A stretch of 64,000 nucleotides of DNA from NCBI GenBank assembly GCA_023213395.1, contig CM041465.1:206219741-206283740 (forward strand). Direction: 5' to 3'. Below, piece after piece: positions 1,483 through 33,493 of this stretch; position 1 is the stretch's first letter, and each line of letters opens with the position of its first letter. The notes beneath the pieces are model-generated. The model did no database searches. It had not been told where the DNA came from and worked only from the letters and a program-made list of their open reading frames with translations. Source of the stretch: Cycas panzhihuaensis. Lineage: Eukaryota; Plantae; Cycadophyta. The translations under genes and the position numbers were made by a program.

Positions 1483-2959
1483 ATGTTACCTAATCTAAAC
1501 TTTAGCATACTACTACTAACATAAACCTAAATTCTATCTCATGGTCTCTTGTGTGAAATAAACAGATGGAATTGAGCATGGCTACAAAGGAACAAGGGGG
1601 TTGGCCTGTCATATAACACAAATAATAAATGAATACCATGAGTTGTTGCATGGCAAAGCATACAATCATGTTTAGTGGGACTATAAGCAACATTTTAAAT
1701 AAGACTCCCAAAAGCTATAATCTTCTATAGAGACCAATTATCATGAGGATTTGGGAAGTTTTATTATAAAATTTATTCATATGGGAGAATCTTGTTCAAA
1801 TGAGAAAGAACCATTTTAGGCAAAGATGATGCACTTCCTCATTTCAATTTTGTGATTTGGTCTTTATTGTTTATTCATGCCATAGATCACTTCCTTGTGT
1901 ACATGGAAATTGATGTATTCTTTCAACTATTCACAACTCTAGATTTTCGTGGTTCAATCTTACACCATCTTCATAAATACAAACATGGAAATCTCAATAA
2001 TTCTACTACAAGTTGAATCTAGATTCAATACTAAAATTTAATAATTGATAATGGGACGCTTAAATCAATCTTTAGGGGTTATCTACTATATGCATTTATG
2101 TTGAGAGAATGGATCTAGGGATCTAGTGCACTAACACTACATAATGGCAAATAGTGGAAACAAACATAATGTACTCAACAAGAGAAATGCTAATAGCTTG
2201 AGTTCAAAGTGGAGAAATGTAGAATATGATCACTCTCCATGTAATTTCAGCTTATATAATGGGAATACTCATTATGGTGTAGAATTTGAGTTTTCTCTCC
2301 CAATGACATTCAGATGAGATTACATAAAATTATAATGAAATGAACTTTATGTCATTTCACTTACGTGACTTAAGCATAGTCACCTTATCCTAAAGTTACA
2401 AACATAAAAGTGACTTTATCTAATTCTAACTTTATGAAATGACCATGTGACATTAACATCATTACAATCCCGCTCTTAATGGCAGAAGGTCATTTTCCTT
2501 TATCCCATTCTAATTTATGATGTCTTCATTTTAGCCTCATCATTACATTGAGAAAAAAAATTTACAACCTACAAGACACTTTTGTGGGAAAACCTTCAAG
2601 GGAATAAAAACCCACAGACTTGACTTCCTATTCTATGAAGTGGCTCAAGGGGCTCTTTGAGTATAACTAGATAACCAAACAGTACAAGTTGGTTGTGCAA
2701 TTTCAATCTACTGAGTCTCCATATACCGTTTCATCATCCCCCATGCCCTTTCGGGTTTTTACAGGTTCTGATTTTCGAAACAAGTACAACCCAACTCTTT
2801 TCGCGTCCACGAGCGGTTTTCACGAATGGGAGAGAGCAGAGACTTACTCTAATCCTTCTGCGCCCACAAGGGGTTTTTACGAATATGATAGAATATGCTG
2901 GTCCTATGTGCCATCTCCTTTAATCAGTTGGAGATGAAGGCCTTGAGGCTGAGTTGTTG

Positions 2960-5900
2960 TCAAAATTGTTTAAACTTCACCCTTTGTAGTGGTTTGGTGA
3001 AGATATCAGCCACTTGATCTGCTATGGGGCAGTGTTCCAATTGTATTGTGTCGTCATGGACTAGTTCTCGGATCTTGTGGACTTTCGTAGTAATGTGCTT
3101 TATACGATCATGAAAAACAAGATTTTTGGCCATGTGGATTGCTGATTGATTATCCACATGTAAGCTCGTTGGACCTGTCTAGGTGATATCTAAAGTATGT
3201 AATAATTTGCGAAGCCATATCACCTCCTTGCTAGTCTTAGAAGCAACTATGTATTCAGCTTCAGCAGTAGAATCTGCAGTGATTTTTTGCCACCTTGACC
3301 GCCATGAAATTGAAGTTGTTTCAAAAAATGTGGTGTACCCGAACGTTGATCTTTTTGTATTTTTGTCACCGGCAAAATTTGAGTCTCTGTATGTTGTAAG
3401 TCTGAATTCATTGTTGTACTCATATAACAAACCAAGTTTGTTGGTCGTCTTTAGGTACTTCAACACTCATATTGCTGCTTGTCAATGGTTCTGCTTTAGA
3501 GTTGTCATGTAATGGGTAAGAATACCAACGGCATGGGCAATACCTGGCCTTGTATTGGTAACATAAATGAGGCTACTTACAAGTTGTCGATAGAGTGTTG
3601 CGTCTGCCTCTTAAGTGTCTTCATCAGAAAGTTTGACATTGGGCTTCATTGCTGTAGACATTGTTCTGGCATCTTCTAATCTGAGTCTCTGTATGTTGTA
3701 AGTCTGAATTCATTGTTGTACTCATATAACAAACCAAGTTTGTTGGTCGTCTTCAGGTACTTCAACACTCGTATTGCTACTTGCCAATGGTTCTGCTTTA
3801 GAGTTGTCATGTAATGGGTAAGAATACCAACGGCATGGGCAATATCTGGCCTTGTATTGGTAACATAAATGAGACTACTTACAAGTTGTCGATAGAGTGT
3901 TACGTCTGCCTCTTAAATGTCTTCATCAAAAAGTTTGACATTGGGCTCCATTGGAGTAGACATTGTTCTGGCATCTTCTAATCAGAACTTAATTAGAAGA
4001 TCGTTGAGATATTTTTCTTGGGAGAGAGATTTTTCCATTGCATTGAGTTACCTCAATTCCCAAGTAATATCTCATTAGTCCGAGGTTAGACAGTTCAAAG
4101 GATTTTAACAAGTCCATCTTTAATTTGTTGATATTCTGGTCACTGTTTCCGGTTATCGGCATGTCGTTCACAAAGATCAAGAGATATATGACTTTGCCTT
4201 TTTCTCTCTTAATGAACAAAGTTGCATCAATGTCTTGATAATCACATATCTCATAACCAAGTTGTTTCATTTTGTTGGACAACTTAGTGAACCAAGCACA
4301 AGGGACTTGTTTTAGGCCATATAGCGACTTTTTCAGTCTACACACTTTTTACTCTTGTCCTGTTATCTCAAAGCCTTCAAGCTGTGTCATGTAGATTTCT
4401 TCTTCCAAATCTCCGTTGAGAAAAGCAGTTTTCACATCGAGTTGGTGGATTTTCCAACTCTGTTGAGTAGCCAAGGCCACAAGTGCTCTGATTGTGGGCC
4501 ATTTGGTAGTTGGTGCGAAGACCTCTGTGTAGTCAATGCCTTCCCTTTGGGTGAATCCTTTTGCGACCAACTTCGCTTTGTGTTTTTCAAGGGTGTCGTC
4601 TAATCTGTATTTATTTTTGAACAATCATTTGTTTCTGACTACCTTCCTTCCTAAAGGCAGATCAACAAGCTCCCATGTACTGTTTTTTATCAAGGATTGG
4701 TATTCCTCATTCATGGCATTTCTCCAAATTGTGTGTTTCACAACTTCTTGGTATGATAAAGGCTCGTCATTTGAAGCAAGGTGCAGTTCAGCTGGTTCAA
4801 GCTCTATAGGAAGTGATATTTGCTCCCTTGCTCTGTAGGCATCGCTTCGAGTGCCAGTTTTGCCTACCTCATCAGATCTCAAGTCTTTGTGCAACTGGTA
4901 GGCTTCTCGAAAACCCTTAGTTGGAAATGACATTCTTATTTTCACAACATCTTGGTCTTCATTTTGATCCTGAAAGGATCATGGGAGATGTATGGTCTGG
5001 AGGTCGATGACATTGCTGGAGAAGACAACCCTACAACTGAAGATGGTGAAGGTAGTTCTTCTACAGCTCCTTTTCCTTTTGATGCATGATGTGGTGATTC
5101 CTGGCTATTCTCCCAAGATGGCGTTGGATTGGTGCACATTGGCACAGGATCTGAGTCAAGGATAATGTCCTCTGGAGCTCTATTGTCAAATTCCAAAATT
5201 TTGAGTATTTCTATAGTGTCTGCCCCCCCCCCCCCCCAAATGTTGGAATCTGTACATCATATTCCTGGATATCGTTGTATCTATGAGATGGTACTTTAGA
5301 ATTAAGCTGAAGTAGTTGATCCTTTGTTTCCGCAAACACCACATCCCTAGTGATAATGATCTTCTTTAATGTTGGAATGAAGACCTTGTACCCTTTTTTG
5401 TTCATGGGATACCCAACAAAGATGCCCTTTAAAGCTCGCGGTTGGAGCTTATTTCTATGCTAATCGAGAATGTGACGATAACAAGTAGAGTTGAAAATTT
5501 TAAAGTGATGGACGGTGGGGGTCTGTCCAATCCATGGTTCATTTGGAGACAGGTCGAACTTCGGTGGACTTATGTTGTTCATGCAATAGAGTGCAGTAAA
5601 TAACTTCTGTCCAAAGATATGCAGATACATTCTTGAAGGCGAGCATAGCTTGTGCCATATTCATTACAGTTCTGTTAGCCCTTTTAACAATGCCATTTTG
5701 CTGAGGGGTACCTGCAATAGTTGTTTGATGCTTGATCCCCTGGTGAGGTAAGAAGTCTTTGAATTCATTTGAAGTGTATTCACCACCATTGTCAGTCTTG
5801 AGACACTTCAGCTGATATTTGGATTCCTTCTCTATGAGAGTCTTGAATGCCTTGACTACTATGAATGCTTTATCTTTTGATTTGAGAAAGGTCACCCATA

Positions 5901-7824
5901 CCTTTCGAGTGAAGTTATCAATAAATGTAATGTAGTACCTCTTCCCTGTGAGAGAAGGGATAGGCATAGGCCCACAGATGTCTTAGTGTACTAATTCAAG
6001 AGGCTGACTGGCTTTCCATTGACTCTAGGGAAATGGTTGTCGGTGGGATTTAGCAATAATGCAAGCTTCACATTTGAACGACTTAGAAGAAAATCTGGGC
6101 AGACTTGGAGTGGAATGGGAGATTTCCTTAAGTCGATTAAGTTTGACGTGCCCCATGCCAGCATGCCAGAGAGCTTCTAGGGATAGCTTGGAATGAGTTA
6201 AGGTGACATTATATGCAAGTTCTTCTTCGACACAGATGAGGGCAGCAACTTGGTATGTAGAAGAAGACAGCGTGGTTCCAGTCAGTCTAAATATCTTACC
6301 TTTAAGTTTCCCAGTCATCACCACAAAACATGAAGGCAGGTGAATAACACTAAGAACTTAATCGTTAGTTATGACACACTAAGAACTTGATCGTTAGCTG
6401 TGACACTCAAGTCGAATCCACGGGAGACCAATGTGGATAGCGACAAAAGGTTTTGTTTGAGATGGGGAATATACAAGACATCTTTTAAAGTAAAATTAGG
6501 CAGGCTTGGGAGCTTCAGGCATATGGAGTCCATGCCTAGAACAGGTTGTGTCGACTTATCGGCCATATGCACTACTCCAGTGACCTTTGAGTCAAAATCT
6601 TGGAAGAAGTCTCAGTGACAAGTCATGTGTTGGGTAGCTCCTGTGTCCATAACCCAGTCCGATGATGATGTTGATGTAGTATTTACCTGTCCAAGAGGTT
6701 GAGGCAGTGGCGAATCAAGCTGACAAATGGTTGTGCCACAATGTGCCTCGATGTACCTCTTAGGTCTAGAAACAACAAATGAAGTGGATGCTTCCCTATT
6801 TTGTTGAATATGTGCCTCAATGAGATTTGCTCCTGCAAATAAGTCATCATGACTCTCATCAACATTGTGGGCTTGATGTTGTTGTTGTTGATGACGACGT
6901 TATCTGTTGTAGTCAATGCGGCAATCTTTTGCAAGGTGTCCTTTCCTGTTACACCTTTGACATGTGGAAGCATTGATGTTTGATTGTCTTTGATTAGCGG
7001 TCTTTTAACTGTTGTTTTGTTGCTGACCTTGTTGTTGCCTCTACTGTTGTCCTTGTTGCTTTCCCTTGCCTCTTACCGCGACCTCTTCTTCCTCCATGTG
7101 AAGATTGACCTTGCTATTTGGTGTAGTATTCTTCCTCGTCCATGTTAGCTTCGAAGGCTGCATTAGGAGGTGAATCTGAAAGTGGGAAGCTGGTAGTGAA
7201 GGTCTTGTCATGTTCAATAAACTTCTCAACTAATGCTTCGAAGTTGAGGGTCTTCAGTGTGGCAGATGACTGAAGATTTCCCAGCAAGTTATTATAATCA
7301 AGAACGTGTAGACTTGACTAAATTAGGAAGGCCCAAGTTATGCATTAGGTCTTAAAATCCCTGTTAATGGTCTGTTTAATAGGGAAAAGAGCATTGATGG
7401 TTTCATGTGCTTGCCTTTTCTGCATTCGCATCTTGTTCATCTTCAATACCATATGAACAAACTCCAAGTCTGATCGAGTATCGAAGTTTCTTTTGACGAC
7501 TTTGAGGACCTTGAAGGCAGTGTCGTGTTGCATGTCATCGATCAGGTTGTGCAAGGAGTAATATGTAACTAGAAGGATCCCTGGTCTGATCTTTTGGTCT
7601 TCAATGATCCACTGTCGTCGTTGCAGATTATTAGGTGGAGGAGCTGGAGGTGAGCCACCACTCTGTGGTGTGGTGTCGGTAGCAGGTACTATTGGGGTTA
7701 ACTCTAAGTGGTCCAGCCAGAGTCCCTCATACTTGGTTGTGTTATTGACTCTCGTGAACCATAGATCACAATTTTCCTTCCCCTTTAGTGTACAATTCAC
7801 ATTTTGTTTGAAGTTGGTCGACAT
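2960..7824 (-). pseudogene. gag-pol of copia B (Gag, CCHC, protease, integrase, RT, RNase H), disrupted by stops and frameshifts
   Basis: ORF pieces with protease WVMDTGAT (~6630-6660), integrase KTDNGGEY/TPQQNG (5539-5967), RT QLDVKTAFLNG (4349-4624), RNase H AEAEYI/DIFTKPL (2960-3466); copia domain order. Confidence 0.95.
3380..3983. repeat. 302-bp tandem duplication inside the RT of copia B
   Basis: 3380-3681 and 3682-3983 align end to end with scattered substitutions. Confidence 0.95.
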
Positions 7825-8143
7825 GGTGGTGTGAAAAGATGAATAAGAGTGATGTATATAAATGTGTATGAAAATGCACTAAGTAGAAAAAGGTGGAGTC
7901 ACTGACACTTGGGACAGGTCTACCTGACGCAACAGGGAATAATAATGATGTAAAGCCACTAATACTTGTGGTGAATCTTCCTGACGCAATAGGAAATCAT
8001 GAAATAATATAATGTAAGATGTAAAAGCAAAGATATCACAAATAAGTATGTGGTATAAGTGATCTAGTCAAGATAAGTGATAAGGCCTATATAGAAACCG
8101 GCATGTCGGCGCACACAACTGGTAATTAATGTGATGTAGGATG

Positions 8144-8403
8144 TGTTAAAATCACGTCTAACCCTCTCCACTACTACCTGCGGGTTTTGGTGTGATGGTG
8201 AAAACGTGTTGGTATCAGAGCCAACGTCACGGGGTCGACTCCCGGGGATCCCGACGTATCGGCAAATCCGTGCGCTCGGATGCAAACAGTGGGTTGTAAG
8301 TCCCACGCCGTCGTGGAGCGGTTCACGTGACGGGGCATGTTAAAATCACGTCTAACCCTCTCCACTACTACCTGCGGGTTTTGGTGTGATGGTGAAAACG
8401 TGT
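8144..8403 (+). mobile_element. Miniature LTR retrotransposon (TRIM/SMART-like), 260 bp
   Basis: Identical 66-bp direct repeats 8144-8209 and 8338-8403 starting TGTT; PBS TGGTATCAGAGCC at 8210-8222; PPT-like GTGACGGGGCA at 8327-8337; 128-bp non-coding interior. Confidence 0.9.
8181..8253 (+). ncRNA. tRNA-like cloverleaf with A-box/B-box-like motifs spanning the mini-element LTR/PBS junction (not a canonical tRNA gene)
   Basis: A-box-like TGGTGTGATGGT 8188-8199; stem GTTGG/CCAAC (8208-8212/8221-8225) around an 8-nt loop; T-arm CGGG-GTCGACT-CCCG 8230-8244; acceptor-like pairing GGGTTT(8182-8187)/GGATCC(8246-8251) with G:U pairs. Confidence 0.65.
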
Positions 8404-10512
8404 AGGAAGGCCAAATCAGCACACTGTCCACTGCCACATCAACACACGCCCAAAGCCGGCTCGGCACCGCTTCAAATTTCGACTCCATTTGTCTTTTTGA
8501 GGAAATTTCTTCAAGATTCTAGTGCTCTCTCTCTTCGCCACTCAACTCCTCACCGCCGAGTCATCTCCAACGCATCGCCCTCGAGAAGATTGGATCGCCG
8601 CCACCACTTGAGGATCGCCAAGACTCCCAAGATCACCGTCATCAAAGCGATCTTTGAGTCAATCGCTCTCTCACGCCCAAAGATCCGGCTCATTGATCAC
8701 AGTTTGTCATTGAGCATTCCACCAAGATTTAATCACATCATTGCCTAGCCGCCCGAGCCGCCACCTCATCAAGACTGCCTTGAGCCGCCACCTCATCAAG
8801 ATCGCCAACTCGGCGCTTCTATCATCGCTCACTCATTAATTGCCTTTATCGGCTCATTGGGTGCACTGTCCGACTCATTAATCGCATCGGCTCATTGAGT
8901 GCATCGCCCAAAGATTGACTCATATTGACAAAAAGGATCGTTTAGCCATCATTATCGAGTCGGTCCAATCAACTCAAGCAGAGTATCCCATCTCATCGCT
9001 AGCTAGACTCTCTTCATTTCCATTAGCAAAAGACTCTCTTCATTTCCGACTCACTGGCCGCTACCATCGAAGGTCGCCACTCAACCGCCACTCATCGACA
9101 TTCATTCCACTCATCTCTTTCTTGCCAATTTGTCATCATCTCTTGCCGGCTCGTAGGTTCTGCCACCGGCGGTTTAGCACTCATCATTCAAAGACACAGT
9201 CCACTTTGGTCGCCGGTGTCATCTCACCGCCTAATCAGCCCTCATTCGACTTGCTCCTCAACTATCGAATCACCCTCTACCGCCAACTCAGCAGAGGATT
9301 CCAGCTCATCATCAAACTGTCCACATCAATTCAAGCCGCCACATCGCCCAATTCAACGGTGACTCAAGGCCTCTTGCCAACTCAAAGATTGAACTGCCCA
9401 AAGGCTCGAAGTGGAAATTCAAATTTTTTTTAGCATATTTTGATCAATATGCTCATGTGAATTCTCTTTTAAAAGATTTTAAGAGATTTTTTTTTAAATT
9501 TCTTAAGGGGGGAAATTTTAAAAAAGACTTTAAGTCTTTATAGTTGGGCCTACTTAAAGTTTTTTTTACATTGGCACTCTTGATTCTCAAAAAGTACTTG
9601 TGTACTTACTGTTTTAAGCTTTTTTTTCACACTTTCATGCTATTAAAGCATCATTGGGCTTAATTATTGTGATCAAGAGGAATATTTTCATTGTAAAGGT
9701 GAAGAAAATTACCACCTAACTTCAGTTTTTTGGCACCTTGCATGGTGACCTTGACCTTCTTCAGTTCAAAAAGGAAGGTTCATTGTGAAAAGTAATAAAA
9801 TCACTTTTTTCTTGTTGGATTGTTGAGACATTTTAAGTCTCAACAGCGGCTGTGTGGAGTTTGTGTTGGACTTTGGAGCAATTTCGTGAGTACATTTCAT
9901 CAGATTTTGGAACTTAAAAGGAACCCTCTTTTGCTGTCATCAAAGGTTCCTTACATCAGTTTTAAGTACCCAAAGTACTTTATCATTGTACTCAAGCATA
10001 CATAGCACCTCACTTGGATCTAAAGCACTTGAAATCTGTTTTGTGCTCATTCTTTGTAAGCCAAAAGGCATAAAAAATCCAAGTAAGAAGATTCACTTAG
10101 ACTTATTTAAAAGTGAATTTAAAACTCTGTTGGAGAGGCTCGAAAAAGGTTCAAACCTTGCCTCGAATTAACCTTAAGCTTGGTGCATTCCTAGGGGACC
10201 AACCGACTGCATTGTCGGTGCACGACAATTAAGGTTGCTTGAGGAAAGGAGGTTCGAAAAGGGTGTTATTGAAATGTGAATCCTGTGGAAAGCATGGTAC
10301 GTCCATGCAGATCAACCCTACCTGCCTTGTCCTAGATTTAACTTGATCCTCCACCTCATTAGCCAGAGTCCTCCACCTCTCTTCACCCCATTGGTTGTTG
10401 GATCTTCTTGTAAGATCAAGACTAGTGGTGTTGTTTGAAGGTGGGTCTTAAGCGACAAAGCTTTTGAAGTTTCCAAGTTATCTGCTAGCTTCAAGTGTTA
10501 CTCAAGTGGAAA

Positions 10513-13500
10513 GATGGCTGCCATAAGTATGCTTAATGCTTGTACCATAAGGCTAAGTGGCAATCAAATTATCAAGAATGGAAAAGAATCACAAAAAATC
10601 TCTTGATAATGAATGAGTTCTAGGGATATGTTTCTGGAAGAATCCTCAATCCTACACTTGTGGTTAATGATAATCAACCTGCACCTGTGGATGTTCAACT
10701 TGTTGCTGCATGGGAGGCCAAAGACGAAATTGCCTTGGCTTTCATTCGTATGGTTGTGGACATACATGTAGACCAAAATATTACTTCTGCACTATCTTCT
10801 AAAGAAGCATGGGACACCTTGTCCTCCTTGTATGAAAAGCGAGATGAAGCTCGCATTTTGATGATAAAAGCTAAATTGTACTCCATCAAATTTGTAAAGC
10901 CAATGTCGGCATTCATGTCCTCTATTAAGGAGGTTTGTAATGAATTAACTATTTTAGATAGTCCAGCTACAAGAGATGAAATCATAGCCTCCATCACAAA
11001 AGCATTGCCAAAGGACTACAACAGCTTTATATCATCAATTACACGAGATGGTTCACTAAGGGGGATGACAGTCAATCAACTTGAAAGCTTATTGCTTCAA
11101 GAAGAACAAATCTATGCTAAGGATAATGAAGAACCATCTACATCAGGTGCTTTCATAGCAAGGGCCAAGACAAATCAAAAATCCAAAACTGCATTCACAA
11201 AGCAGTTTGGAAATATGAACGTTGGATCTTCCAAATCCAATGTCGTATGCCATTATTGTGGCATTCTTGGCCACATTGCACCGAAAGTGTAAAGAAGCAA
11301 GCAGATCGTCAAAGACAAAGACCACAGGATCAAAGACAAGCGGCCATTGTGGTCAAAGACAACAGCAGCCCACGACATCGGGCCAACAAAGGTTCCAACA
11401 CACGATCGGCGTTCCCCTCGACCAAATCGAGGTGCCTATCGAGGAGGTCCAAGAGGAGGGGGGGGTCAAAGAAATGGCTACCAACGCCATTATAATCAGT
11501 TTGCCAATGATGACAAACTACTTTGTGCATACCAATCATCCAAGGTTGACAACACTTGGATTGTCGATTCAGGAGCCACTCGACATATGACAGGAGTGAA
11601 GAACTCCTATGCAACATCAAAGAAGGTAAAGGTCATTTAGTGACCTTTGGAAATGTCAATCGATTGAGGTTTCGTGAATAGGCACCATAGCTCCTTTTCA
11701 TTCTCCTCAAAATCCTTCCTCATCATTTCCCAACAAAGGATGCCTACTTCATTCCTTCTATGGAGAAGAATCGCTCTCTGTTAGCCGATGAACAAGCAAA
11801 AATGAGCGTACTATTTAAAATGGGAAATGTATTATTTGTGACAAAGATGATCGGATCATAAATGTAGCCTATGAGGATCAAGGTCTTTACAAGTTGGATG
11901 CCAATAATATTACTCTTAATTCGCTTACTTTGGTTCCACATCTTTGTCAAAAATTCGGTTATGCCATCAACGCTCAGGACGTTTAAGCCTAGACAATCAA
12001 GCGGATGACATACAAACGCATGGTGTATGGGCTTCCAAAGATGTATGGTTCAAAATGTTTTTGCGAAGCTTGCATAATGGGGACACAACATCTACGCCTT
12101 TTCCTAAAGGCAAAGCATGGCGTGCATCTTATCCTTTGCAATTAGTTCACTGCACTTGTGTGGACCCATGTCCACCCACCCTTTGGAGGAGCATTGTACT
12201 ACATATCTTTTATTGATGACTTCTCTCACAAAGTCCGGGTCTACTTCCTAAAGCATAAATCGAGCCTTCTCCAAGTTCAAAGAGTTCAAGGCGAAGTAGA
12301 AAATGAATCGCTACTCAATTGGCACATTAAGGTCGATAATGGAGGTGAATTCACTTCAAATGAATTCAACCAATTTTGCAAGGATAATGGAATTGAGACA
12401 ACTCACGACTCCTCATACTCCTCAAAGAAATGGAGTCTCCGAAAGGATGAATAGAACATTGGCTAATAAAGCCGTAACAATGATGCATGCAAAAGGGCTT
12501 CCAAGAGCTTCTCGGGTCAAGCATTTCTTACAACCGCTTATGTGGCCAATCGAAGTCCTACAAATAGCCACCAATATCACACCCGAGGAGGCATGGTCCG
12601 AAAGAAGCCAACTATCGACCATTTGAGGACATTCGTGTATCAGATATGCACATACCGGATCAACAAAGAACAAAGTTGGACAAACATAGCCTAAAATGCA
12701 TCTTTGTAGGATATGCAATCCATAGCAAAGCCTACAAGTTGTATGATCCAATTGAGAAAAATGCATCTCTCAAGAGATGTAATCTTTGTTGAGGATGATA
12801 AAAAGAGTTGGATATGGCATCAATCCAACCCCCATTGACAAAGGGAAAAGATTGTTGAGAACTTCCTTCCCTCAATCTTACACACCATGTTCTTCATCAA
12901 GACCTTCGTACCATCTACTTCATCTTCATTTGCTCCACTTGAACCTTCCACTTCATCTTCTGCCGCTCCTACACTTAGACCGTAAGATATTGAGGTTCAT
13001 GCCACATCATTTCGTGGTTACCTAAGTGGTACACTCAAACCAAGACAGATGGTCACATCATTGAAGGGAAACGTCCATCAAAGTTTCTAAGAAGAAACAA
13101 ACTTTGCACTTATGGTCAAGTGCTTTCTATTGATGAGCCTACTACCTTTCGGAGGCTTCACAAAGTGATAGTTGGAAAGTCCATGGATGAGGAGATTCAA
13201 TCCATTCACAAGAATGGTACTTGGGACTTGGTCGAATTGCCTCCACACAAACAGTAATCATTGTAAATGGGTCTACAAGACCAAATTCCATTCCGATGGG
13301 ACACTCAAGCGTAAAGCTAGACTTGTAGCAAAGGGGTTTAAACAAAAGAAGGAATTGATTACGAGGAGACCTTTGCACCAGAGCAAACATGAACACAATC
13401 GACTTCTCTTGGCCTTAGCCGCACAATGCAAATGGGTCAGATATCAGATGGACGTGAAGAGCGCCTTCCTCAACGGCGATCTTCAAGAGGAGGTATACTT

Positions 13501-14640
13501 GGAGCAACCTCCTGGTTACAAGGAACAAGGCAAGGAGCATTTAGTATGTCGCCTCAAGAAGGCTTTGTATGGCTTGAAGCAAGCTCCTAGGGCATGGTAT
13601 GCAAAAATCGATGAATACTTTCTGAGACATGGGTTTCATCGATCCACATCTGATCCAAACTTGTACATCAAACATGAACATCACCATGTCACTTATATTG
13701 CCTTGTATGTAGATGACTTAGTGATCACGGTGATGACTCTAAGCTCATCAATGTTCTCCAAGATGACTTGAAGAGAAGTTTTGAGATGACCGATCTTGGA
13801 CTTCTCCATTACTTTCTAGGCTTTGAGGTATGGCGTGCCAAAGCTATATCTTCATTTCCCAAGCAAAATATTCTTGGGACATCTTGCAGAGATTCGGGAT
13901 GCACGATCGCAAGACGGCGCCACACCCATGGAGAATCCAAGACCAAGCTTTCCTTAATGAGGAAGTCGAACCAAGAGATCCCACTCTCTATCGACAGCTG
14001 ATTGGTAGCTTGATTTATCTCACCAACACTCGCCCGCACATTTCATTTGCGCTGGGATTTGCTCGTTACATGTCTCAACCCAATCGACATAATCGAATGC
14101 AAGAAACGCATACTCAAGTATATCAAAGGAACATTGCGCTTGGACTTGAGTATGTACATAAGGAGAACTTCACTTTGAGGGGTTCTCGATTCGATTAAGT
14201 GATGCCGAGATAGCTGAAATCTACCCTGCCATCTGCTTTTACCCTTGGTTCAGCAGCTGTTTCATGGTGTTGCAAGAAGCAACCAAATGTTACCTTGTCC
14301 TCCATCGTAGAGTACAAAGTCTGCAGTCATGACAGTGAGGCTATCCGCTGCGACGGATTCTTGGTGAGCTTGGATTTCAGCAGCAGCAGCCGACCAGCCT
14401 TCATTGTGACAATCAAAGTGTCCTCAAGCTAACTAAGAATCCTGTTTTCCACGCACGGACCAAGCATATTGAAGTTCACCACCATTTCATCAGGGAGCAT
14501 GTACACAGCGGTGAGATCACACTTCAATATCGACCAACGGAGGAACAGACGGAAGATATCTTTACCAAGCCACTTGGTAGAGACAAATTTGTAAAATTCA
14601 GAGATGGTCTTGGTGTCCGACTTAACATTATAAACAGTAA
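10513..14640 (+). pseudogene. gag-pol of copia C, many small indels
   Basis: Gag ORF 10660-11292 with CHYCGILGH knuckle; protease WIVDSGATRHMT; integrase VDNGGEF and TPQRNGVSER; RT QMDVKSAFLNG and LYVDDL; RNase H HARTKHIEV..DIFTKPL near 14450-14575. Confidence 0.95.
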
Positions 14641-14647
14641 GGGGGGG

Positions 14648-15225
14648 TGTTAAACCTTATGTTTAAATGTTAAGTGAATGTATTTTTATTTTTCATGTAA
14701 TATATGCACTTTATACTTTAGGGGTGACTTATCACTTAAGTGATAAAGTGCACACCCACATTCTTTCTAGTGACACAACGTTGTCACTAAAGGGTCAATG
14801 GACCCTCATGCACCTTTTTGAGTAATCCAAGTGATGTATCTTGGATATTTGACACTTGTCAAACATCCAAGGCCTTAGATGAGGATCCAAGCACTTTTGC
14901 TCATGATCCAAGTCATGTATCTTGGATGTTTGACACTTGTCAAACATCCAAGGCCTTAGGTCTCTCATTTCACTCTATATAAAGAGACCTCTCCTCATTG
15001 TCTCATAAGGAGAGTTGGAGCTGTATTGTTATGCTATCAGTTTGCTAATCAAATTGTTTTCTTCTTGGGAGGTTGGACCAATTCCAACTCCACATATTGG
15101 GTATCATTTTCTCTTGCTCCTATTTCAGTTTGTGCTCTTTATGCTTTCATGCTTTCATGCATTTATAGTATTGTGATTGTACTTATGATCTTGGGATTAA
15201 TGTGGCCTAATGCCCATCTTCCACA
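14648..15225 (+). repeat. 3' LTR of copia C (578 bp) with an internal ~55-bp duplication and palindromes
   Basis: After PPT, ends CCACA before the TSD; duplicated unit ~14825-14878/14906-14959. Confidence 0.9.
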
Positions 15226-18091
15226 GGATGTGTAACAAACCCAAACCTCTAACTTGTGTCCAAAGTAGGTGAGGTATCGATGCATAGGGGATTTCTAATA
15301 TACGCAATTAATGGCCTTCACCCACGATACCCACACTGTTTCTTGGTGATAAAATCCAAGTAAACTTGGAGCCCAAGTACTGTCGGTCCTCACCCCATTC
15401 ACCAATGAGTAGCGATATACTCTCTGAAGAGAAGTACATGCATGCCGCACGGCTATGACGGATATTAGCCCAGCTAAATTAATTATCTTAAGGGTTTTCA
15501 GTTTTCCCGGATGGTTATCAGGATAATCCTTGATTGGAGACCATAGGTATGGCTAACCTATCCCTCCACCACTATACTGGTTATGACCAGACACAGTATG
15601 AAACTCACACCTCCCTTAAGGCCCAGACTTCAGCCAACCTTAGTCTATTTCAACCAAGGCGAGTATGCACACAAGTCAAGAACTAGCAGTATAAAGTCAT
15701 CGAGATGAGTTGATTTTAAGGAAAGTGCTCTTGTTCTCGAATGACATGTAAAAATAACTGAAAACTAAATGTAAATGCTCCACTTAAGTGTTGTTGTCGT
15801 GTCCAAGTGTAGTGATGATGTGTCCACCTAGTGCCCAAGTGGCACTCTATATGCCCAAATGGCACTCAATGTGGTCTCCAAGTGCATGAAATTATTAAAG
15901 TCATACACATATGATGAGCCAAATCATTGGATATTGCTCTGATCTAGATAATTGGTTAGTACAAAGAATTTAAGTGTCTTGTTTATTTTACAAAAGGGCT
16001 AAAATAGGCCTCCAAAAACCAAAAAAGCTATAAATGTCTAAAAAAAAATCCCTCTTGCATGTAATTTTTTTTTGAAATGAAAGGAAAAAAAATAAAATTT
16101 TCAGAAATACAATGTACGTTGAAAAATCAAATTTTCAGCAAGCCAAATCTGCTTTTAAGCAGACTATACCGTCTATTGTACTGCTATATGATACAAATTT
16201 CAAAAAAAAAAAAAAAAAATAAAACTTTTTCAGAGTTGTTGCCCTTCACTTGCACTTTGCAAATATATAATTTTTTTTTTTTTTAGTCTTATCAAAAATA
16301 GGCAAAACAACTTATTTTAGCTCGTGACAAAATATATACCAAAAAATCTTAAAATGTTCATAACTTTTCAACGGAGCGTCGGATTCATGCGAGACATATC
16401 CCAAATGATAGATCGGGTCAAGAAGATACAAAAATGTATATTATTGTAGAAAAAAATTCAGATTTTTTCAAATCTGATAATTTTAAATTTGGATGGTAGT
16501 TGCCTAAAGTAGGTTGTTTGACCCCTTTAACCTCGAAATCTCGCGTCACTCTAATAGACAAAAGTGCTTAAGAGGTTAAAACGCATCTACTAGTAAAATT
16601 CTGTCCGATTCTGAGTATTTTGATTTTTTAATTGTATCGATATACGTAATTCCGTACAATTCGTACAACGTCTGTACGATTTGATTTCAGACTTTAAAAT
16701 TTGCTTATGATCAGTGAAAACCACTTATTTCTTTTTTTGCAAGTTGTAATTCTAACTTTTATTACAAAAATGGGCCAAAAATAAGCAAAAAATAACAGAT
16801 TTGGAATTAAAAAATAAAGCTGAAAATTGTTATAAGATGAGCAATTATTGTGCTCTTTTAAACTTGTAAATAGGTTGCTTTAGGGAGTCACACTTCTTTA
16901 TTTCATTTACAGAAATAAAATAGTACAAGAGCATACAATTTTGTACTAAAAATCTACTAAAAAGAGTTTTGAAAAAGGATTTAAAAAAAAAATATCTCAA
17001 CTCTTCATTTCACATGAATGGTGAAAAAGAGTAGAAAATAGCTTGCAATCTCCTTGCAAATGAGTGTGGCACTAGGATACTCTCAATGGCTCTGATACCA
17101 CTTGTTGAGGGAATGGATCTATGGATCTAATGCACTAACACTGCACAATAGTAAATAGTGGAGACAAACACAATACACTCAATAAGAGAAATGCTAACTT
17201 GAGCTCAAAGAGAAGAAATGTAGAATATGATCACTCTCCATGTAATTTTAACTTATATAATGAGAATGCTCATTAGGGTTTGGAATTTGAGTTTTCCCTC
17301 CTAATGATATTCAAATGAGTTTACATAAAATTACAATGAAATGAACTTTATATCATTTCACTTAAGTGACCTAAACATAGTACCTTATCCTAAAGTTACA
17401 AACATAAAAGTGACTTTATCTAATTCTAACTTTATGAAATAACCATGTGACATTAACATCGTCACAATTTAACACTCACAATTCCACAATAGAGTTCTTA
17501 ATCGAGTCAAAACATGTAATATAGAAGTGGGTTTGAAGTTAAGATGTTTGAACTTATTCAAGCATGAGTTCTTGCATTCCATAGGCTTGATCTTGAAATT
17601 TCATGCTCGATATTATTGACATAAATCTTTATAATATAGGAGAAAAGCTCAATAACTATATGCATTGAAATGGAATCAACTAAATTTTTTTGTGTCAAGT
17701 TTTCATTACTAAGGTTGGAATGGGAGTTTTCTTGTATGTTCATTCTACCCCAAAGTAGGGAATCTCCGCAAGAAAATGTCATAGAATTTAAGTCCCATGA
17801 AAGTTTCCAAGGGAGATTCAATACTCTTCAAATGATAAATCTGGGTAAGTCTACTACTTATTAGGTTTCATAGTTTTGTTCTATTTCCATGTTTCCCTAC
17901 ATAGTCAAGTATATGAGATTCTAGTCTAGTAGTTGGTCATGATCTCCATTCCAGGTAAGACACATGTTTAAATCTTGAAGGGTCCACCAACAAACACCAA
18001 TATGTGATAGGAAGGGTTCAAGGGTGGTACATGGTTGCTAATTGTTGTAGAACAAACTTGTCCACAAAGCCCCAATTAATTGGCTATATAT

Positions 18092-18109
18092 ATGTGTGTG
18101 TGTGTGTGT

Positions 18110-18143
<34 letters not shown>
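18092..18143. repeat. (TG)n microsatellite
   Basis: Direct reading. Confidence 0.98.
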
Positions 18144-18145
<2 letters not shown>

Positions 18146-18551
18146 ATCTATTTAATGCATCAATTATACATGTACAAAGCATCTTATGGTGTATAACTAA
18201 TGATTTGTAGGTACCAAAACTAATGATAACAATTGTTGTAATGTTTAACATAATTGTTTGTAAGTATATTATATGAGTTAAAACATGAGCAACACTATAG
18301 AATGGCGTTATCAATCCATGAATCCAAATGAAATATTGAAATCTATTATCAAATAGGAAAGGTAACCCTGGCTATTGCTCAAGTACAAATTCCTAGGAAG
18401 ATTGTGACATATAAAAGTACAATGTTTCAACATTAAAAATTTGACATGTTATTCATTCCATGTGGGGGAGAACTACGATGTGTAGAAGAGTTTCTTCAAT
18501 TTATGTTTTTATTTTATTTATTTATTTATTTGCCACTTTTATGTGCTATAG

Positions 18552-18704
18552 ATGAATGCAAGCATCGCTGGGGCAACTACAGGTGTTGTGATTGCTGCAA
18601 GGACAAGGAGTCTAGTGCAAATTTTTGGTCATGCTATTGTACTTTCAACACTGACCACAGTTGTTGAGTGTTTAAAACCAATTGATGATACTCCTTGGAA
18701 CTAA
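18552..18704 (+). pseudogene. OEP16-4: Orphan terminal exon of a Tim17/22/23 (PRAT) family gene, OEP16-4-like
   Basis: After a pyrimidine tract and TATAG acceptor: MNASIAGATTGVVIAARTRSLVQIFGHAIVLSTLTTVVECLKPIDDTPWN*, resembling the recalled OEP16-4 C-terminus (NALV.GAV.GAA.A.STRNWTQVVGM); upstream exons not found in the window. Confidence 0.7.
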
Positions 18705-19868
18705 ATCTAACTTGCTTATAATGTACATTAATTATTCGTGTATTAGATTTTCTTTAAAGCAAGAGCTAAAGTTTATTGATGCAATTAGTCAAATTCAACA
18801 TTCTTATTGTATTCGCTAGATTATTGTCATTTTTTTCTGGATTCTCTTTTTCTCAAGGTAACTTAGATTTTATGGTTGAGAGGTTCAGTTTTATTATTTA
18901 TTAGCCTTGTTGCATATAAGGCAAGGATATGAGAATCAAACAACTACTTTTTTGGACCTATGTTAATAACGTCGTCTTGTTACAAACACTTCATTGTTCT
19001 TAACTTGATTATTCTATTGTGCAGTGTAAAGATTCATTTTGTGCAGTAATGAAAAAGGTTTGTATTGCCTTTGATCTTTTTTATATTATTTTATACAATT
19101 TACTTCCTATATTATAAAATTTGCACCTTAATCTACCAATTTCTTTCAATTGTCATGGATTACACTAGACCAAGATGGGTTTTCTAGAAAATTGTTATGT
19201 TTAGCATCTTACAATCTATGTTAAACTCTAAAATAGAGTTTATATGAACAATTATATGATTAATTTGTGTTTTATCAAGACCATGATTTAAAGCCAACCT
19301 TGCTAGTGTGAAAATGCTTTGTAAATTGCTTTGTGGCATATTTCATATATGTTTGCTTGTAGTCAAGAACATGAATGAATGATGATATGGATTTGCAAAA
19401 ACATATGTTGTATTGTTGGGTTTTAAGTCATATTTTATGTGAAGCATGAGTAGTTTCTTTGCATTCTCCATTCAATGTGATGTTTACTATCATTTTACAT
19501 TTTGCACCCTGCTGACTTTAATCAAAGTGATTTTTTTTTTCTTTTATGTAGAGATCATTATGTTATAAATCTTATGAAATTGGATTTTAAGACAACACTT
19601 GACTTTTCACTGGGCTAGGCCAAAATCATTTATTACATTCTATATTGTTTTCTTTCACCCTATTTTCTCTTAAGTTTAATTGGAAATGTGTTCTTGAATT
19701 GTATTGTTGATCTTGCCAATGAAGAAATACTATTATTTACTTGAGACCCTTTTGTTTGTTTATGTTATAGTTTGTCATTTCTATTTCTTTATTAATTTGT
19801 TTCCAATTAAAGCCTAGAGTGATATTGTCATGTGTTTTCATCATTTTCATCCATTATTGACTATATAT

Positions 19869-20403
19869 TGTTGAAAATGCCAAAGACCTATGAAATCCAA
19901 GATCAAGAAGATAATTCACTCTAGCTCTAGAAAGCATGAGAACATGGCTAACAAAGGAAATGAAATGATAAATGAACAAGATCAAAGTTTGAAGAGCAAG
20001 ATGATACCAAATTGAGAGGAGACGAAATTAGTCCAATCTCCAAAGGAATACCAGTTGATTAGCAAATTGATAGCATAACATTACAATTCTAACTCTTCAT
20101 ATGAAATATGAGAAGATATTTCAATATACAGAGAAACTGAAGAGACTTAACAACATTGGATGTTTGACAAGTGTTAAACATCCAAGCTACATGCAATGCA
20201 TGTCTTGCACGTCATGCATGAAGAACATGTGTCCTTTCAGACTCTCAAGTGAGCAAAGATGCATAAGGATCCATTGGACCCTTTAGTGACAATGTTGTGT
20301 CACTAGAAAGAATATGGGTGTGCATATTTACTTGTCCCATAAAGTACAAATAATGAATAAAAAAATAAAGTGCATACTTAACATGTAAACATAAAGTTTA
20401 ACA
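19869..20403 (-). mobile_element. Solo LTR related to the copia C LTR (535 bp)
   Basis: TG...CA ends; TSD TATAT/TACAT; reverse complement resembles 14648-15000; absent at the paralogous site ~35190. Confidence 0.9.
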
Positions 20404-21536
20404 TACATCATGTGAGGTTAGACCTTTTCCATTTTAGGCTAAATGTTTTGCAATGAAAATCAACCAATCTTTCTTTGACTATTTGTTGGACAAAAAATAA
20501 CTTTATATTTTCAATTAATGCATAGGCTCCATCATCAATATTGACACGACATAGCCAAAGTGGAAGGTACATATAAGAGATCATGGCATATAATTGAGCA
20601 ACAATCTTCATTATTCATTGTTCAATAGGTAAATTTACAACAAAAATATAGATTGGTAGTCCACAAGGGTTGCTAAAAACCTAAATACCATAATCATACA
20701 GATGTTACCATGCTTTCGCTTTCGTATTCTCTCCTTAAATACATTCTTAGGAGTTTGGGTCATTAATCTAATTCCATTCAACCCGCTTTACCCTTTTATT
20801 ATAATAATCCTCTCAATCATGGTGCCTCTACAATCTTTTTTGTAGGTCACAGGCTTCAACTTTGCTAATATCTCTCTTAGATTTAATGGTTGCCCTCTCC
20901 TTAAATAATGAAGAATCAAACATCATCTCTCTTAGAAGTAGAAATAAAAGGATAATGGAAAGTATGCCAAGAGTTTACGTAAGGGCAAACTACTTAGTTG
21001 TTATGGTTAACTTATGAGTATTCTCATTTATTCCCATGCAATTGATGTGCCCTAAGTCTTTTGGTGGAAAGTGGCCACCTGTGATTTGACACATGACCTT
21101 ACTTGGATCCCAATCATGGTGCAATCCTATAGAAAAGTTAAGTTTGCTACTAGCTATCAGATTCACCTATTGGGTTACATTGTCACTTGAGCACTACCTA
21201 GTAGGTAACTCGCTTTAATATAAGAGTTCTTACTTACCCGTAATCATCACATTTGATCACATCATCATTGAGCCCTACTTGGAAAATTACTCATGACGTT
21301 TGTGTTCATCCTCAACATATGCCATGTGAGGATTTATACTTTATGAATGGCATTGTTCATGGAATCACAAGAAAATGTTAGAAAAATAAGAAGTGAAAAG
21401 AGAAATTTTCACTATAACATCTATTTGTTAAGAAATTGGGTTTGATATCATGTTAGATGGTTATCAAACACATAAGAGATTGATGAATACAAAATATTTC
21501 TATATGTTTGATGTGTTATTATTTAATATAAGAATG

Positions 21537-21538
<2 letters not shown>

Positions 21539-21602
<64 letters not shown>
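21539..21602. repeat. (TA)n microsatellite
   Basis: Direct reading. Confidence 0.98.
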
Positions 21603-21605
<3 letters not shown>

Positions 21606-22079
21606 GTGTAGCTCATACAGGATCAATGAAAAGTAATATGTGCACACAAAAAAAGATAAAAAATCAATAAGAAATAAAAAAATAATGATCTAGGCCAAAC
21701 TGGTCCATTAAAAATAACTAGCGTTGATAGGTGAATTCTGATCTTTGAGTACAGAAATCTAACTTTTGATAGTAGGAATCAAATATCAAATATCTTATCA
21801 TAGAAATCTGATTTTTTTTATTGGTAAATTTTGAATTTTAAGCATAGGAATCTGCCTTTTAATTACAGTAATCAGGGTTTTGTTTGTAGAGATTTAGTTT
21901 TTGGTTGTTGAGATTAGATATTTGACTATTGAAAGAGCTACAACCAAAAGATGTAACATAGAAGACTTAAGAATTTGTTGACTTGTCCAGTCTTAGTTTA
22001 TATAACCAATCAACTTATAATCACTTAGTAACTTGTAATGTAATCCATACCCAATAGTTCTTCTAAGATACTTGGAAAT

Positions 22080-22290
22080 CTTTTTGGCTCCCTGTCAATG
22101 TTTTACCTTGGGCTCATGCATAAACCTAGAAACCACATTGACTGTATACATAATGTCTAATTGAATTGAAATCAAGTAAATAAGACTCCAAATCCACTAC
22201 TTGTAAAGAGTAGAGTCAATTAATTCAGGCTCCTCAAACTTAGACAATTTCAATCCAACTTCTATTAGATGAGTTGTTTGTTACTTAGTG
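22080..22290 (-). pseudogene. Isolated copia RT fragment
   Basis: Minus translation SLIYLISIQLDIMYTVNVVSRFMHEPK. Confidence 0.75.
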
Positions 22291-24354
22291 GGAATGGACT
22301 TGATTGTTCACTTCAAAATTTTAGATTTTTTTGCTTTGAAGTTTATCAAAATACAAAAGGCTTTATTTTCCTTTCTCTTGCATGTTCGCAAATGAACAAA
22401 AGATAGCATTTAACTCATTCAAAAGATTGCAGATTTATGAAACTCATTAAATTGGGTGAAAATGGAGGTATTAATACTCTGAAGTAGTAGAAAAGAGATG
22501 AGTGATGCCCGCACAAAAAACCTATGGACTATTGACCCTTTATAATTTTCAGAGCATGGCAAGTATATGAAGATTTGTGAACTTTAATCACATATATTAA
22601 GATCATATATTAAGAGCATTCACCTATATATTCACTTATGAGAAACGCTTACATGCACCTATGAAAACTTATATGAACTTATACACATCAATAACCATGA
22701 ATTAGACATTACATTCAATACTTTTCCATAATAGTTTAATTCATTAACATCATGAAGTATCCTAAAATTCTCGAACTTGTCTAGTTTACTTTTCAATGTT
22801 GTCACCAACATGTAGTTATTATTGGATAATTTGTATCGTTTTTAGAAATGTTTTTGTCAACTTTCTCAAAGAGATCTATACCATCATTTTTTAGCTTGGT
22901 TATCTCATAAGAGTTTCTATTTGCACTTCTTTATTTTCTTATTCAATTTCTTATATGAAATTTATCTGGACTCTCTCAATTTGCTTCCTTTAAGATCTAG
23001 CTATTCTTATAGCCACCTAACCTTTGAGTTTGATTTGTTGATGTCTATATAAAGAAACAACCATCTACTAGAATACACGAATAATTAGTTATTATAATTG
23101 TTCTTTTGCTTGGAAATTCTTTTCATACATGGTTCATCAACTATTTTTATATATTTACACCTATCATAATCTCCCAAGAACATGCTAAACTACTTGACCA
23201 AACACATATTAAAATCTTATTGATATTCGAGAACAAGTATAACCACTTGGTCAAACAATGTTCAAGTATCATTGTAGATGATTCAACTTTTTGCCAACTT
23301 GTTGTAACTCCACATATATCTATTCCATATTAGAATCCTCTAAAATAGATTGCATGATGTTGTCCTCTCAATCATAATACAGTTATAGTTCAAAATATTG
23401 AAGCACAAATCAAAGTGAGGCAAAGGCTGGAATCGTCAATGCTAATTTCTTGGCTTTTACAGTCCAAATACCAATTGATGAAGTCTCACAAATATTAAAT
23501 TGTCATCTTTGCCATTGTTTTTTCTTCACAATCATCAATTGTAGCTCTAGAACATTCTATCAAACACTTTGTGTGCAACCTCTTATGAACATTTTATCAA
23601 ACATTTGATGCACTTGTGACAATTTCATATGCTCTTAAGAAAAAACAAAACTACCAAATGTGAAAACTCTATTATCAAATAATAGTTTTTTTTTCCTTTT
23701 TATTACTGATCTTTTAATAATAAGTGTGGATAGTCTACATAATTTGTAAAGACCTTTGAAATAATTTAGCTACTTAACTCAAATTGTTAAAATTAGTATA
23801 TATTATATATTTAGGCATCACTTGCATATATATTTATGTGCTTGTTAAATTAAATTTTTATAACAAATAATGATTTTTATGGTTTAAAAGACATTTGTGA
23901 GAATTTATTTATGAGAAATGCATATGGAAATGTCATATCAAATAAATAAATATATTTTGTGTAATCGGTTAAGTGTTTTATTTGGACCTTTCATTTGAAG
24001 ATTTATTAATTGAAGTTTTGTAGTGAGTTCATGGTAAGGATATCTTTTATGAATGGTAGCGAGAGTTACAACATATTATCCAAGGTTAGTAATAAGTGGT
24101 TGTTGAATATTTGTGTTTTATTAATTAATTAAGTTACAAGTAATTACAAGTGGACACCAAAGATGTTTCTTGCTTTGTAAGGTCATAAACTTAAAGTTAT
24201 GAGCTTATGCAAGGTGAAGATAGGTTTCTTCTAAAGAGTTGGAGAAGGGGGACAAGCATAAAATGAAGCATACATAAAGTTGTTTAGTGAGAAAGACAAG
24301 TACGTGGTGATGTGATGTGATAAAACAAAAAAAATATTAAATATTGTAGGGGAG

Positions 24355-30672: not shown

Positions 30673-30713
<41 letters not shown>

Positions 30714-30716
<3 letters not shown>

Positions 30717-33429: not shown

Positions 33430-33443
33430 ATATATGTATATAT

Positions 33444-33493
<50 letters not shown>

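What the first reader, a model, noticed from the sequence alone, without database searches (positions are those of the whole stretch)
8139..15230. Copia C has non-matching ends: the mini-element replaces its 5' LTR, yet one 5-bp TSD brackets the whole composite
Seen: GGATG flanks both 8144 and 15225, so mini-element plus copia body look like one integration. The 578-bp 3' LTR has no 5' partner, shares only TGTTAAA with the mini LTR, and no clean second PBS follows 8403. The mini LTR also lacks a CA end. Known: normal reverse transcription yields identical LTRs. Inference: a chimeric cDNA, for example plus-strand transfer between co-packaged RNAs sharing the iMet PBS, which would point to the C family as the mini-element's helper. 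Alternatives are insertion at the LTR tip followed by deletion, or misassembly. A competing 8/9 direct repeat TGTAGGATG/TGTAGGAAG (8135-8143/8401-8409) flanks the mini-element alone.
Basis: partly seen in the sequence, partly recalled or inferred. Interest (0 to 1): 0.8.

Follow-up and report, generated by a model that had tools for sequence, protein, structure and literature searches.

The report
Tiny retrotransposon replaces copia's left end
In this assembly a complete 260-base retrotransposon sits exactly where the left end of a large copia retrotransposon should be, inside one insertion footprint; it likely replaced that end during later DNA repair, though the two may have been joined before insertion, which would point to the copia as its helper.

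Summary
Observation confirmed. GGATG flanks 8144-15225, and a contig of an uninterrupted host element joins 8143 to 15231, so it is a true 5-bp target duplication. The mini-element is a dispersed TRIM family (260 bp, identical 66-bp LTRs); three unrelated contigs start at 8144. The copia's 5' LTR and PBS are absent.

Plus-strand transfer at a shared PBS predicts one TRIM LTR, a PBS, then the leader start. Here a whole TRIM abuts a mid-leader position.

Best reading (0.55): the copia integrated first, and repair later swapped its 5' end for the TRIM through the 7 nt both LTRs start with. A 7-nt word across the inner junction recurs in the host flank (chance 0.5-2%), which hints at an on-chromosome event. 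Main rival (0.32): a TRIM-copia cDNA joined before one integration.

No listed contig spans either TRIM junction, and the copia sequence looks error-rich (misassembly 0.07). Side finding: weak tRNA-like A and B boxes straddle the TRIM's LTR/PBS boundary.

The parts
2099..17466 (-). Host element B: older copia (LTRs 2099-2466 and 17103-17466, PBS at 17100, own TSD ATTTA); the composite sits in its 5' leader in opposite orientation
   Evidence: LTR pair 89.5% identical; TSD 2094-2098 / 17467-17471; pol matches by tblastn
8139..8143 (+). Left copy of the 5-bp target-site duplication GGATG
   Evidence: one 5-mer in the empty site (X6 record 24)
8135..8141 (+).
   Evidence: chance 96 of 21174 to 453 of 21164 window flanks, by the null used
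8144..8209 (+). TRIM 5' LTR, 66 bp, TG...GT; first 7 nt identical to the copia C LTR start
   Evidence: three contigs with 176-950 nt of foreign flank start at 8144
8210..8222 (+). Primer-binding site (initiator-Met type; tRNA identity recalled, not tested), abutting the LTR
   Evidence: same motif at B's PBS
8181..8253 (+). Weak tRNA-like stretch straddling LTR and PBS: A-box-like 8188-8198, B-box-like 8232-8242
   Evidence: only such pair in the window, 11 of 5000 shuffles; Rfam tRNA-Sec model 12.5 bits, E=4, gathering 47; ARAGORN 0 genes
8223..8337 (+). TRIM internal region, non-coding, with a short purine run at 8329-8335 before the second LTR
   Evidence: family contigs at about 95-100%
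8338..8403 (+). TRIM 3' LTR, identical to the 5' LTR up to the base before the PBS
8404..10560 (+). Truncated copia-type 5' leader (GC-rich, loosely repetitive to about 9400); starts mid-leader; assignment of 8404-9400 to family C is inferred
   Evidence: relatives extend 134 nt further upstream (X6 record 28); no PBS or U5 remnant; C-family contigs lie from about 9425
10624..14647 (+). Copia C gag-pol, frameshifted (gag, integrase, RT, RNase H order) and PPT 14636-14647
   Evidence: Pfam PF14223, PF00665, PF07727; RNase H part by tblastn; RT 63-72% identical to its closest hits, many labelled PITA
14648..15225 (+). Copia C 3' LTR, 578 bp, TG...CA
   Evidence: five listed joints from other C positions land on 14648 (tables 5 and 5c)
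15226..15230 (+). Right copy of the target-site duplication GGATG

Best explanation
A complete 260-bp TRIM sits exactly where a copia's 5' LTR should be, inside one 5-bp duplication; most likely the copia integrated first and made the duplication, and microhomology-guided repair later likely swapped its 5' end for the TRIM through the 7 bases both LTRs start with. Steps: (1) shown: an insertion ending in the C LTR duplicated GGATG in the leader of element B. (2) inferred: that insertion was a normal C element with two 578-bp LTRs. (3) inferred: the 5' LTR, PBS and first part of the leader were lost and the TRIM took their place. The left junction formed inside the shared TGTTAAA, which is why the TRIM starts exactly at the old LTR start and the TSD survives. 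(4) inferred: the right junction joins the TRIM's last base to mid-leader. I lean slightly to one repair event that captured a free TRIM cDNA, its end briefly primed on the host flank (hence the 7-nt echo). Nearly as likely, the TRIM first integrated into the leader (right TSD copy AGGAA) and the stretch between the two LTR tips was then deleted.
For: True TSD with empty site. TRIM 5' end is the family's end (3 contigs). Seven-nt identity lies exactly at the left junction. No PBS or U5 remnant, and the junction is mid-leader. The 7-nt word spanning the inner junction recurs 3-9 nt left of the outer junction in host DNA: chance 96 of 21174 (30-nt flank, one strand) to 453 of 21164 (60 nt, both strands); a junction made before integration could not have seen this flank. 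Precedent: Pol-theta end joining in Arabidopsis leaves microhomology, kb-size deletions and fillers templated from the opposite break end while capturing foreign DNA (PMC10923293, passages); Ty1 cDNA is captured at yeast breaks with microhomology (PMC1976456, passages); post-insertion recombination events far outnumber template-switch complexes in Triticeae, 220+20 against 2 (PMC1950507, whole text).
Against: It needs two or three events at one locus in a short time (TRIM LTRs 66/66 identical). Both TRIM ends are precise, which one integration of a chimera explains at the left end without luck. The 7-nt echo was tested after it was noticed, so its P value is optimistic, and the AGGA part also aligns to leader relatives (alignments start at 8404 in X5 and X6, at 8410 in other X4 and X5 contigs). 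The shared 7-nt tip equally fits a shared integrase site. No intermediate allele was seen, and no listed contig spans either TRIM junction. That 8404-9400 belongs to family C is not shown.
Confidence: 0.55

Rival explanations
1. The TRIM and copia were joined before integration. A finished TRIM cDNA was fused by its right end to a copia cDNA lacking its 5' part (RT jump onto the TRIM DNA end, integrase attack inside the particle, or nuclear end joining). One intasome then inserted the molecule using the TRIM's left end and the copia's right end. This would mark C as the TRIM's likely helper.
For: One event gives the TSD and the exact TRIM start. The second TRIM LTR runs right up to the PBS boundary, as an untrimmed cDNA end would. 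The TRIM shares 7 nt of LTR start with C and a C-like solo LTR, against 3-5 nt with other LTRs here. C is a very deep family in all four runs laid. Integrase acts inside plant copia particles (auto-integration; PMC7197481, passages).
Against: It leaves the 7-nt echo of the host flank to chance (0.5-2%). One relative's second LTR also appears to run to the PBS boundary (X6 record 26 and loose ends), so the untrimmed look may be normal for the group. Described RT-made complexes have matching outer LTRs (PMC1950507). No sibling chimera was found, though the genome could not be searched.
Confidence: 0.32
2. Assembly artefact: a chimeric or mis-joined read placed the TRIM here.
For: The copia looks error-rich: 167 indel places against family contigs, most of the 12 shown being letters missing from the window; C[A/T]G count 56 against 105 expected in C gag-pol, versus 140 against 133 in B pol. 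No listed contig bridges either TRIM junction.
Against: Both joins fall exactly on TRIM ends and on a TSD edge verified by an empty site. The TRIM itself is clean (0 differences over 115 nt to X5 record 17; LTRs 66/66), unlike a raw single read.
Confidence: 0.07
3. One reading: plus-strand strong-stop DNA of the TRIM jumped to the copia minus strand through the shared PBS.
For: The PBS motif is the common plant copia type, and PBS homology guides the second transfer (PMC6894440, passages).
Against: It predicts one TRIM LTR, one PBS and the leader from its first base. Seen: two LTRs plus TRIM internal, no PBS after 8403, and a mid-leader junction. It survives only as a late step for a precursor elsewhere that already held a nested TRIM.
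Confidence: 0.03
4. The TRIM alone (ending at 8400) inserted with a 9-bp duplication into an already 5'-truncated copia.
For: 8/9 repeat; P of 8/9 or better at two fixed sites 1.8e-4.
Against: TGT at 8401-8403 is also the end of the 5' LTR and of family copies. The insertions checked here have 5-bp TSDs. The TRIM would have to land exactly on the old LTR start by chance.
Confidence: 0.03

Closest known systems
Plant TRIMs / SMARTs (Gao et al. 2016, PMC4717578, passages; SMART 292 bp via PMC10886601)
   Same: Short non-coding element with two LTRs, PBS, a short purine run and dispersed copies; 260 bp with 66-bp LTRs is close to the smallest reported (CcaRetroS9, 233 bp, 52-bp LTRs)
   Different: No TSD of its own here; LTR ends TG...GT; fused to a copia leader
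Template-switching complexes of Triticeae (Sabot and Schulman 2007, PMC1950507, whole text)
   Same: Three LTRs, two elements, one flanking 5-bp TSD
   Different: Their outer LTRs are near-identical and both cores complete; here the outer LTRs are unrelated and the second core lacks its PBS
Chimeric non-autonomous elements of sugar beet (PMC13570524, abstract and sections 25, 27, 35 part 1)
   Same: Elements with LTRs donated by another family (TRIM-08 with TRIM-01 or TRIM-05 LTRs)
   Different: TRIM-TRIM chimeras with additional LTRs; the sections read describe no TRIM replacing an LTR of a coding copia inside one TSD
Break-repair capture and deletion (Pol-theta end joining, PMC10923293; Ty1 cDNA capture, PMC1976456; passages)
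   Same: Microhomology at one junction, echo of the opposite flank at the other, loss of target DNA
   Different: Those are induced breaks with T-DNA or Ty1 fragments; capture of a whole TRIM end to end is inferred here, not shown
Helenus / TRIMp3 (Kojima 2024, PMC10886601, parts 1-4 of 6)
   Same: TRIM with tRNA-like A and B boxes
   Different: Helenus holds the tRNA-like sequence inside the LTR and keeps GGTTC in box B; here box A is in the LTR, box B lies after the PBS with one mismatch, and the signal is weak

Membership tests
TRIM | Under 1 kb, two direct terminal repeats | tested here: met
   260 bp, 66/66 identical
TRIM | PBS after the 5' LTR | tested here: met
   8210
TRIM | PPT before the 3' LTR | tested here: inconclusive
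   only a short purine-rich run at 8329-8335
TRIM | No coding capacity | tested here: met
   the two open frames of 100 aa or more that overlap it have 0 Pfam families
TRIM | Dispersed copies with the same ends | tested here: met
   5' end: 3 contigs with foreign flanks start at 8144; the family's 3' end was not resolved
TRIM | Own 4-6 bp TSD | tested here: not met
   flanks GGATG / AGGAA; explained by the rearrangement, so it lowers 'intact insertion', not 'TRIM family'
TRIM | TG...CA termini (usual, not universal) | tested here: not met
   TG...GT, also in family copies; non-TGCA ends are known (10.1101/137141 passages; PMC5659011 abstract)
Ty1/copia (element C) | gag-integrase-RT-RNase H order | tested here: met
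Ty1/copia (element C) | PPT, 3' LTR TG...CA, 5-bp TSD | tested here: met
Ty1/copia (element C) | Matching 5' LTR and PBS | tested here: not met
Template-switching complex (Sabot and Schulman) | Flanking TSD and an internal LTR | tested here: met
Template-switching complex (Sabot and Schulman) | Similar outermost LTRs and two complete cores | tested here: not met
   7 nt shared only; no second PBS
Recombinant of two neighbouring insertions | No flanking TSD | tested here: not met
   a verified TSD is present; criterion from PMC1950507
Helenus (TRIMp3) | tRNA-like sequence with boxes A and B inside the LTR | tested here: not met
   box B lies after the PBS; ARAGORN 0; Rfam 12.5 bits, E=4
Helenus (TRIMp3) | Transcription by RNA polymerase III | not testable with these tools
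   needs 5' end mapping or inhibitor tests

The most novel reading that the evidence does not exclude
One integrase complex inserted a hybrid cDNA with two unrelated ends: the left end of a 260-bp TRIM and the right end of a copia, fused before integration. That would be a genomic snapshot of a TRIM meeting its helper's cDNA, and a way to name helpers for TRIMs that share no sequence with any autonomous element.
Probability: 0.3. Interest if true: 0.72.

Novelty: new variant of a known kind. Interest (0 to 1): 0.42.

Why it matters
Most TRIMs have no identified helper (11 of 289 subfamilies in PMC4717578; 61 of 115 families without detectable similarity in PMC13570524). If such composites arise before integration, TSD-bracketed elements with unrelated LTRs become a searchable record of who mobilises whom. 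If they arise by later repair, the case is a caution: one TSD around a composite does not prove one integration, because LTR tips shared between families act as microhomology. Pipelines that need two similar LTRs miss such structures either way. As it stands this is one locus in an error-rich assembly.

Tried and rejected
No genome is held for the window, so sibling chimeras, intact C copies and the TRIM's usual 3' end could not be searched.

Collection scans: metagenome scans for the C LTR end and for the TRIM LTR found 0 matches. A viral-contig scan with a gag relative gave 7 pattern matches, none confirmed. A TRIM motif scan gave 9 loci; 0 of 9 hold a PBS and none matches the TRIM beyond 17-23 nt, so they were rejected as chance.

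Sequencing runs: no RNA holder listed. The best run shares only 0.16 of the words, so the runs laid may be other individuals or species. Cover of 8583-9365 was nil or very low in the four runs, and nil for 8537-8640. A hole proves nothing; it could reflect a rare leader or window errors, and I draw no conclusion from it.

Idea dropped: the true TRIM LTR starts at 8295 and the 5' copy is truncated. Contigs with foreign flanks start at 8144.

Rfam over 7900-9500 gave 3 weak hits, all far below gathering, and no ribozyme. Tandem Repeats Finder found no real array in the leader. Earlier findings: none. A frameshift count of C against B by tblastn was uninformative: the first try returned nothing, and both are fragmented. 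The RT homolog search gave no close named relative; the best identities were 63-72%, many labelled PITA, which I recall as loblolly pine, so the copia lineage was not assigned.

Literature: searches for a TSD-flanked chimera with unrelated LTRs gave 0 papers, 3 general reviews and only Sabot and Schulman. A search on one-ended aberrant integration gave 0. A search on tRNA boxes with a PBS in TRIMs listed nothing specific among 15 of 35 titles. The library lacks most subscription papers, and no supplements were read.
Full report
Setting. The window is repeat-rich plant DNA; no genome is held for it. An older minus-strand copia, B, spans 2099-17466, with LTRs 89.5% alike and its own TSD ATTTA. 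The finding lies in B's 5' leader, in the opposite orientation.

GGATG stands at 8139-8143 and 15226-15230. The mini LTRs 8144-8209 and 8338-8403 are identical over 66 nt, and a PBS starts at 8210. The copia's 3' LTR is 14648-15225, preceded by a purine tract. It shares the first 7 nt and no terminal base with the mini LTR, and five listed joints from other copia positions land on 14648. Gag, integrase and RT match Pfam, and the RNase H part matches by tblastn. No PBS with 2 or fewer mismatches lies in 8404-10600, and no 10-mer of the LTR's last 60 nt lies in 7900-10600.

The TSD is real. I laid public contigs on 8100-8640 (4 runs, 3 studies, 148 records laid, 28 listed). X6 record 24 matches 8100-8146 without gaps, with 7 other letters, and continues with 30 nt that match 15234-15263 at 29 places (by eye). 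X4 records 9 and 10 stop at the same base. The empty site thus holds one 5-mer where the window holds two. TGT follows on both sides, so the join formally slides by 3 nt; the 5-bp reading keeps both LTR starts whole.

The mini-element is a TRIM family. X2 records 1 and 2 and X6 record 25 begin at 8144, with 950, 321 and 176 nt of foreign flank. X4 record 11 begins one base earlier, and X5 record 17 equals 8146-8260. So 8144 is the family's 5' end, and the non-CA end beside the PBS is a family trait. Loose ends show related subfamilies that share the LTR core to 8199 and differ after it, one with CA and others without. Non-TGCA ends are known in short copia LTRs and TRIMs (10.1101/137141, passages; PMC5659011, abstract). 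At 260 bp it is near the smallest TRIM reported, 233 bp (PMC4717578, passages). The family's integrated 3' end was not resolved.

The inner junction is mid-leader. X6 record 28 matches 8404-8513 (19 other letters, 2 gaps) and carries 134 nt more upstream, with no PBS in the 30 nt shown. An X5 contig has the same last 12 letters. Other X4 and X5 contigs start at 8410. The X6 contig is shallow (depth 12) and ends in what I recall as adapter sequence, so this rests on few records. That 8404-9400 is family C's own leader is inferred from continuity: no boundary signal, and the same low C[A/T]G count as the copia body (16 against about 28 expected in 8404-9403; 56 against 105 in C gag-pol; 140 against 133 in B pol).

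The second strand transfer is guided by PBS homology and normally yields identical LTRs (PMC6894440, passages). A cross-family version would give one TRIM LTR, a PBS and the leader from its first base. The window has a whole TRIM, no second PBS and a mid-leader join. That model is rejected in its simple form (0.03).

Two families of explanation remain. (A) On the chromosome: C integrated normally, then lost its 5' end, with the TRIM in its place. The left join falls inside the shared TGTTAAA, so the TSD survives and the TRIM seems to start at it. The TRIM came either as a cDNA captured in the same repair, or as an earlier nested insertion (right TSD copy AGGAA) followed by deletion between the two LTR tips. 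(B) Before integration: a finished TRIM cDNA was fused to a 5'-incomplete C cDNA, and one intasome inserted it.

Its 7-nt exact core spans the inner junction (8401-8407) and recurs in host DNA at 8135-8141. Among window flanks such a match occurs in 96 of 21174 (30 nt, one strand) to 453 of 21164 (60 nt, both strands). Under B this is chance. Under A it is expected: Pol-theta joining in Arabidopsis leaves microhomology, kb-size deletions and short copies of the opposite break end (PMC10923293, passages), and Ty1 cDNA is captured at yeast breaks (PMC1976456, passages). In the nested variant the AGGA simply lengthens the homology that guided the deletion. The test was made after the repeat was noticed, so it is a modest clue.

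For B: it needs one event only; the TRIM start is exact; the TRIM LTRs are identical; the 7-nt tip is shared with C and a C-like solo LTR against 3-5 nt for four other LTR starts; and integrase is active inside plant copia particles (PMC7197481, passages). I give A 0.55 and B 0.32.

Artefact. The copia looks poorly polished: 167 indel places against family contigs (some are family variants) and the C[A/T]G deficit, which I recall as a methylation-linked long-read error pattern. No listed contig bridges 8143/8144 or 8403/8404, and the runs may be other individuals or species (best word share 0.16). But both joins sit exactly on TRIM ends and on a verified TSD edge, and the TRIM sequence is clean, so misassembly gets 0.07.

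Comparison with what is known. Triticeae template-switching complexes have one TSD but near-identical outer LTRs, and are far rarer than post-insertion recombination, 2 against 220+20 (PMC1950507, whole text). Tandem LTR elements share LTRs of one family (PMC11899658, abstract and Discussion). Sugar beet has TRIM-TRIM chimeras with donated LTRs (PMC13570524, named sections). My searches found no description of a TRIM replacing one LTR of a coding copia inside one TSD; the library lacks most subscription papers and I read no supplements.

Side finding. An A-box-like motif (8188-8198, in the LTR) and a B-box-like motif (8232-8242, after the PBS) lie 44 nt apart. With recalled consensus patterns and one mismatch each, this is the only such pair on either strand of the window and appears in 11 of 5000 base shuffles of the TRIM. 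Rfam's best hit on 8160-8270 is a tRNA-clan model at 8181-8253, but at 12.5 bits, E=4. ARAGORN finds nothing, and the predicted fold is not a cloverleaf (z 0.49); it pairs the LTR end with the PBS instead. Helenus TRIMs carry such boxes wholly inside the LTR (PMC10886601, parts 1-4 of 6). If real, a promoter split across the LTR/PBS boundary would exist only at the 5' LTR. I put this at about 0.25.

Verdict. A real, unusual composite with a verified TSD; most likely a repair product of an ordinary copia insertion, with a live chance of a pre-integration hybrid. New variant of a known kind; interest 0.42.

Noticed in passing
window 8181-8253: tRNA-like A and B boxes at tRNA spacing straddle the TRIM's LTR/PBS boundary, with the PBS where the anticodon arm would be; a listed family variant at 8239 falls on the free position of box B. 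Weak: E=4, no ARAGORN call; the LTR end can instead pair with the PBS.
   Followed up: partly
window 8144-8209: The 66-nt TRIM LTR folds into one long hairpin, z = -3.13 against 200 shuffles.
   Followed up: no
X6 record 26 and loose ends at 8199, 8210, 8393: Related TRIM subfamilies share the LTR core to 8199 and the PBS block to 8245 but differ in LTR ends and internal length (joints skipping 59-65 nt).
   Followed up: partly
window about 19869-20403 (-): Solo LTR about 69% like the C LTR, with the same 7-nt start, absent from the paralogous segment near 35181.
   Followed up: partly
window 17467-23585 and 30028-37427: A multi-kb segmental duplication at about 79-85% identity with independent insertions; content not identified.
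   Followed up: no
window 3376-3986: A tandem duplication of about 302 bp (95%) inside B's RT/RNase H region.
   Followed up: no
window 8404-14640: C[A/T]G is about half of expectation and many single letters are missing relative to family contigs, unlike flanking B: probably an unpolished young repeat.
   Followed up: partly
window 48028-55139: Another LTR pair (88%) with a PBS motif after both copies (48437 and 55059), suggesting a tandem or recombined arrangement.
   Followed up: no
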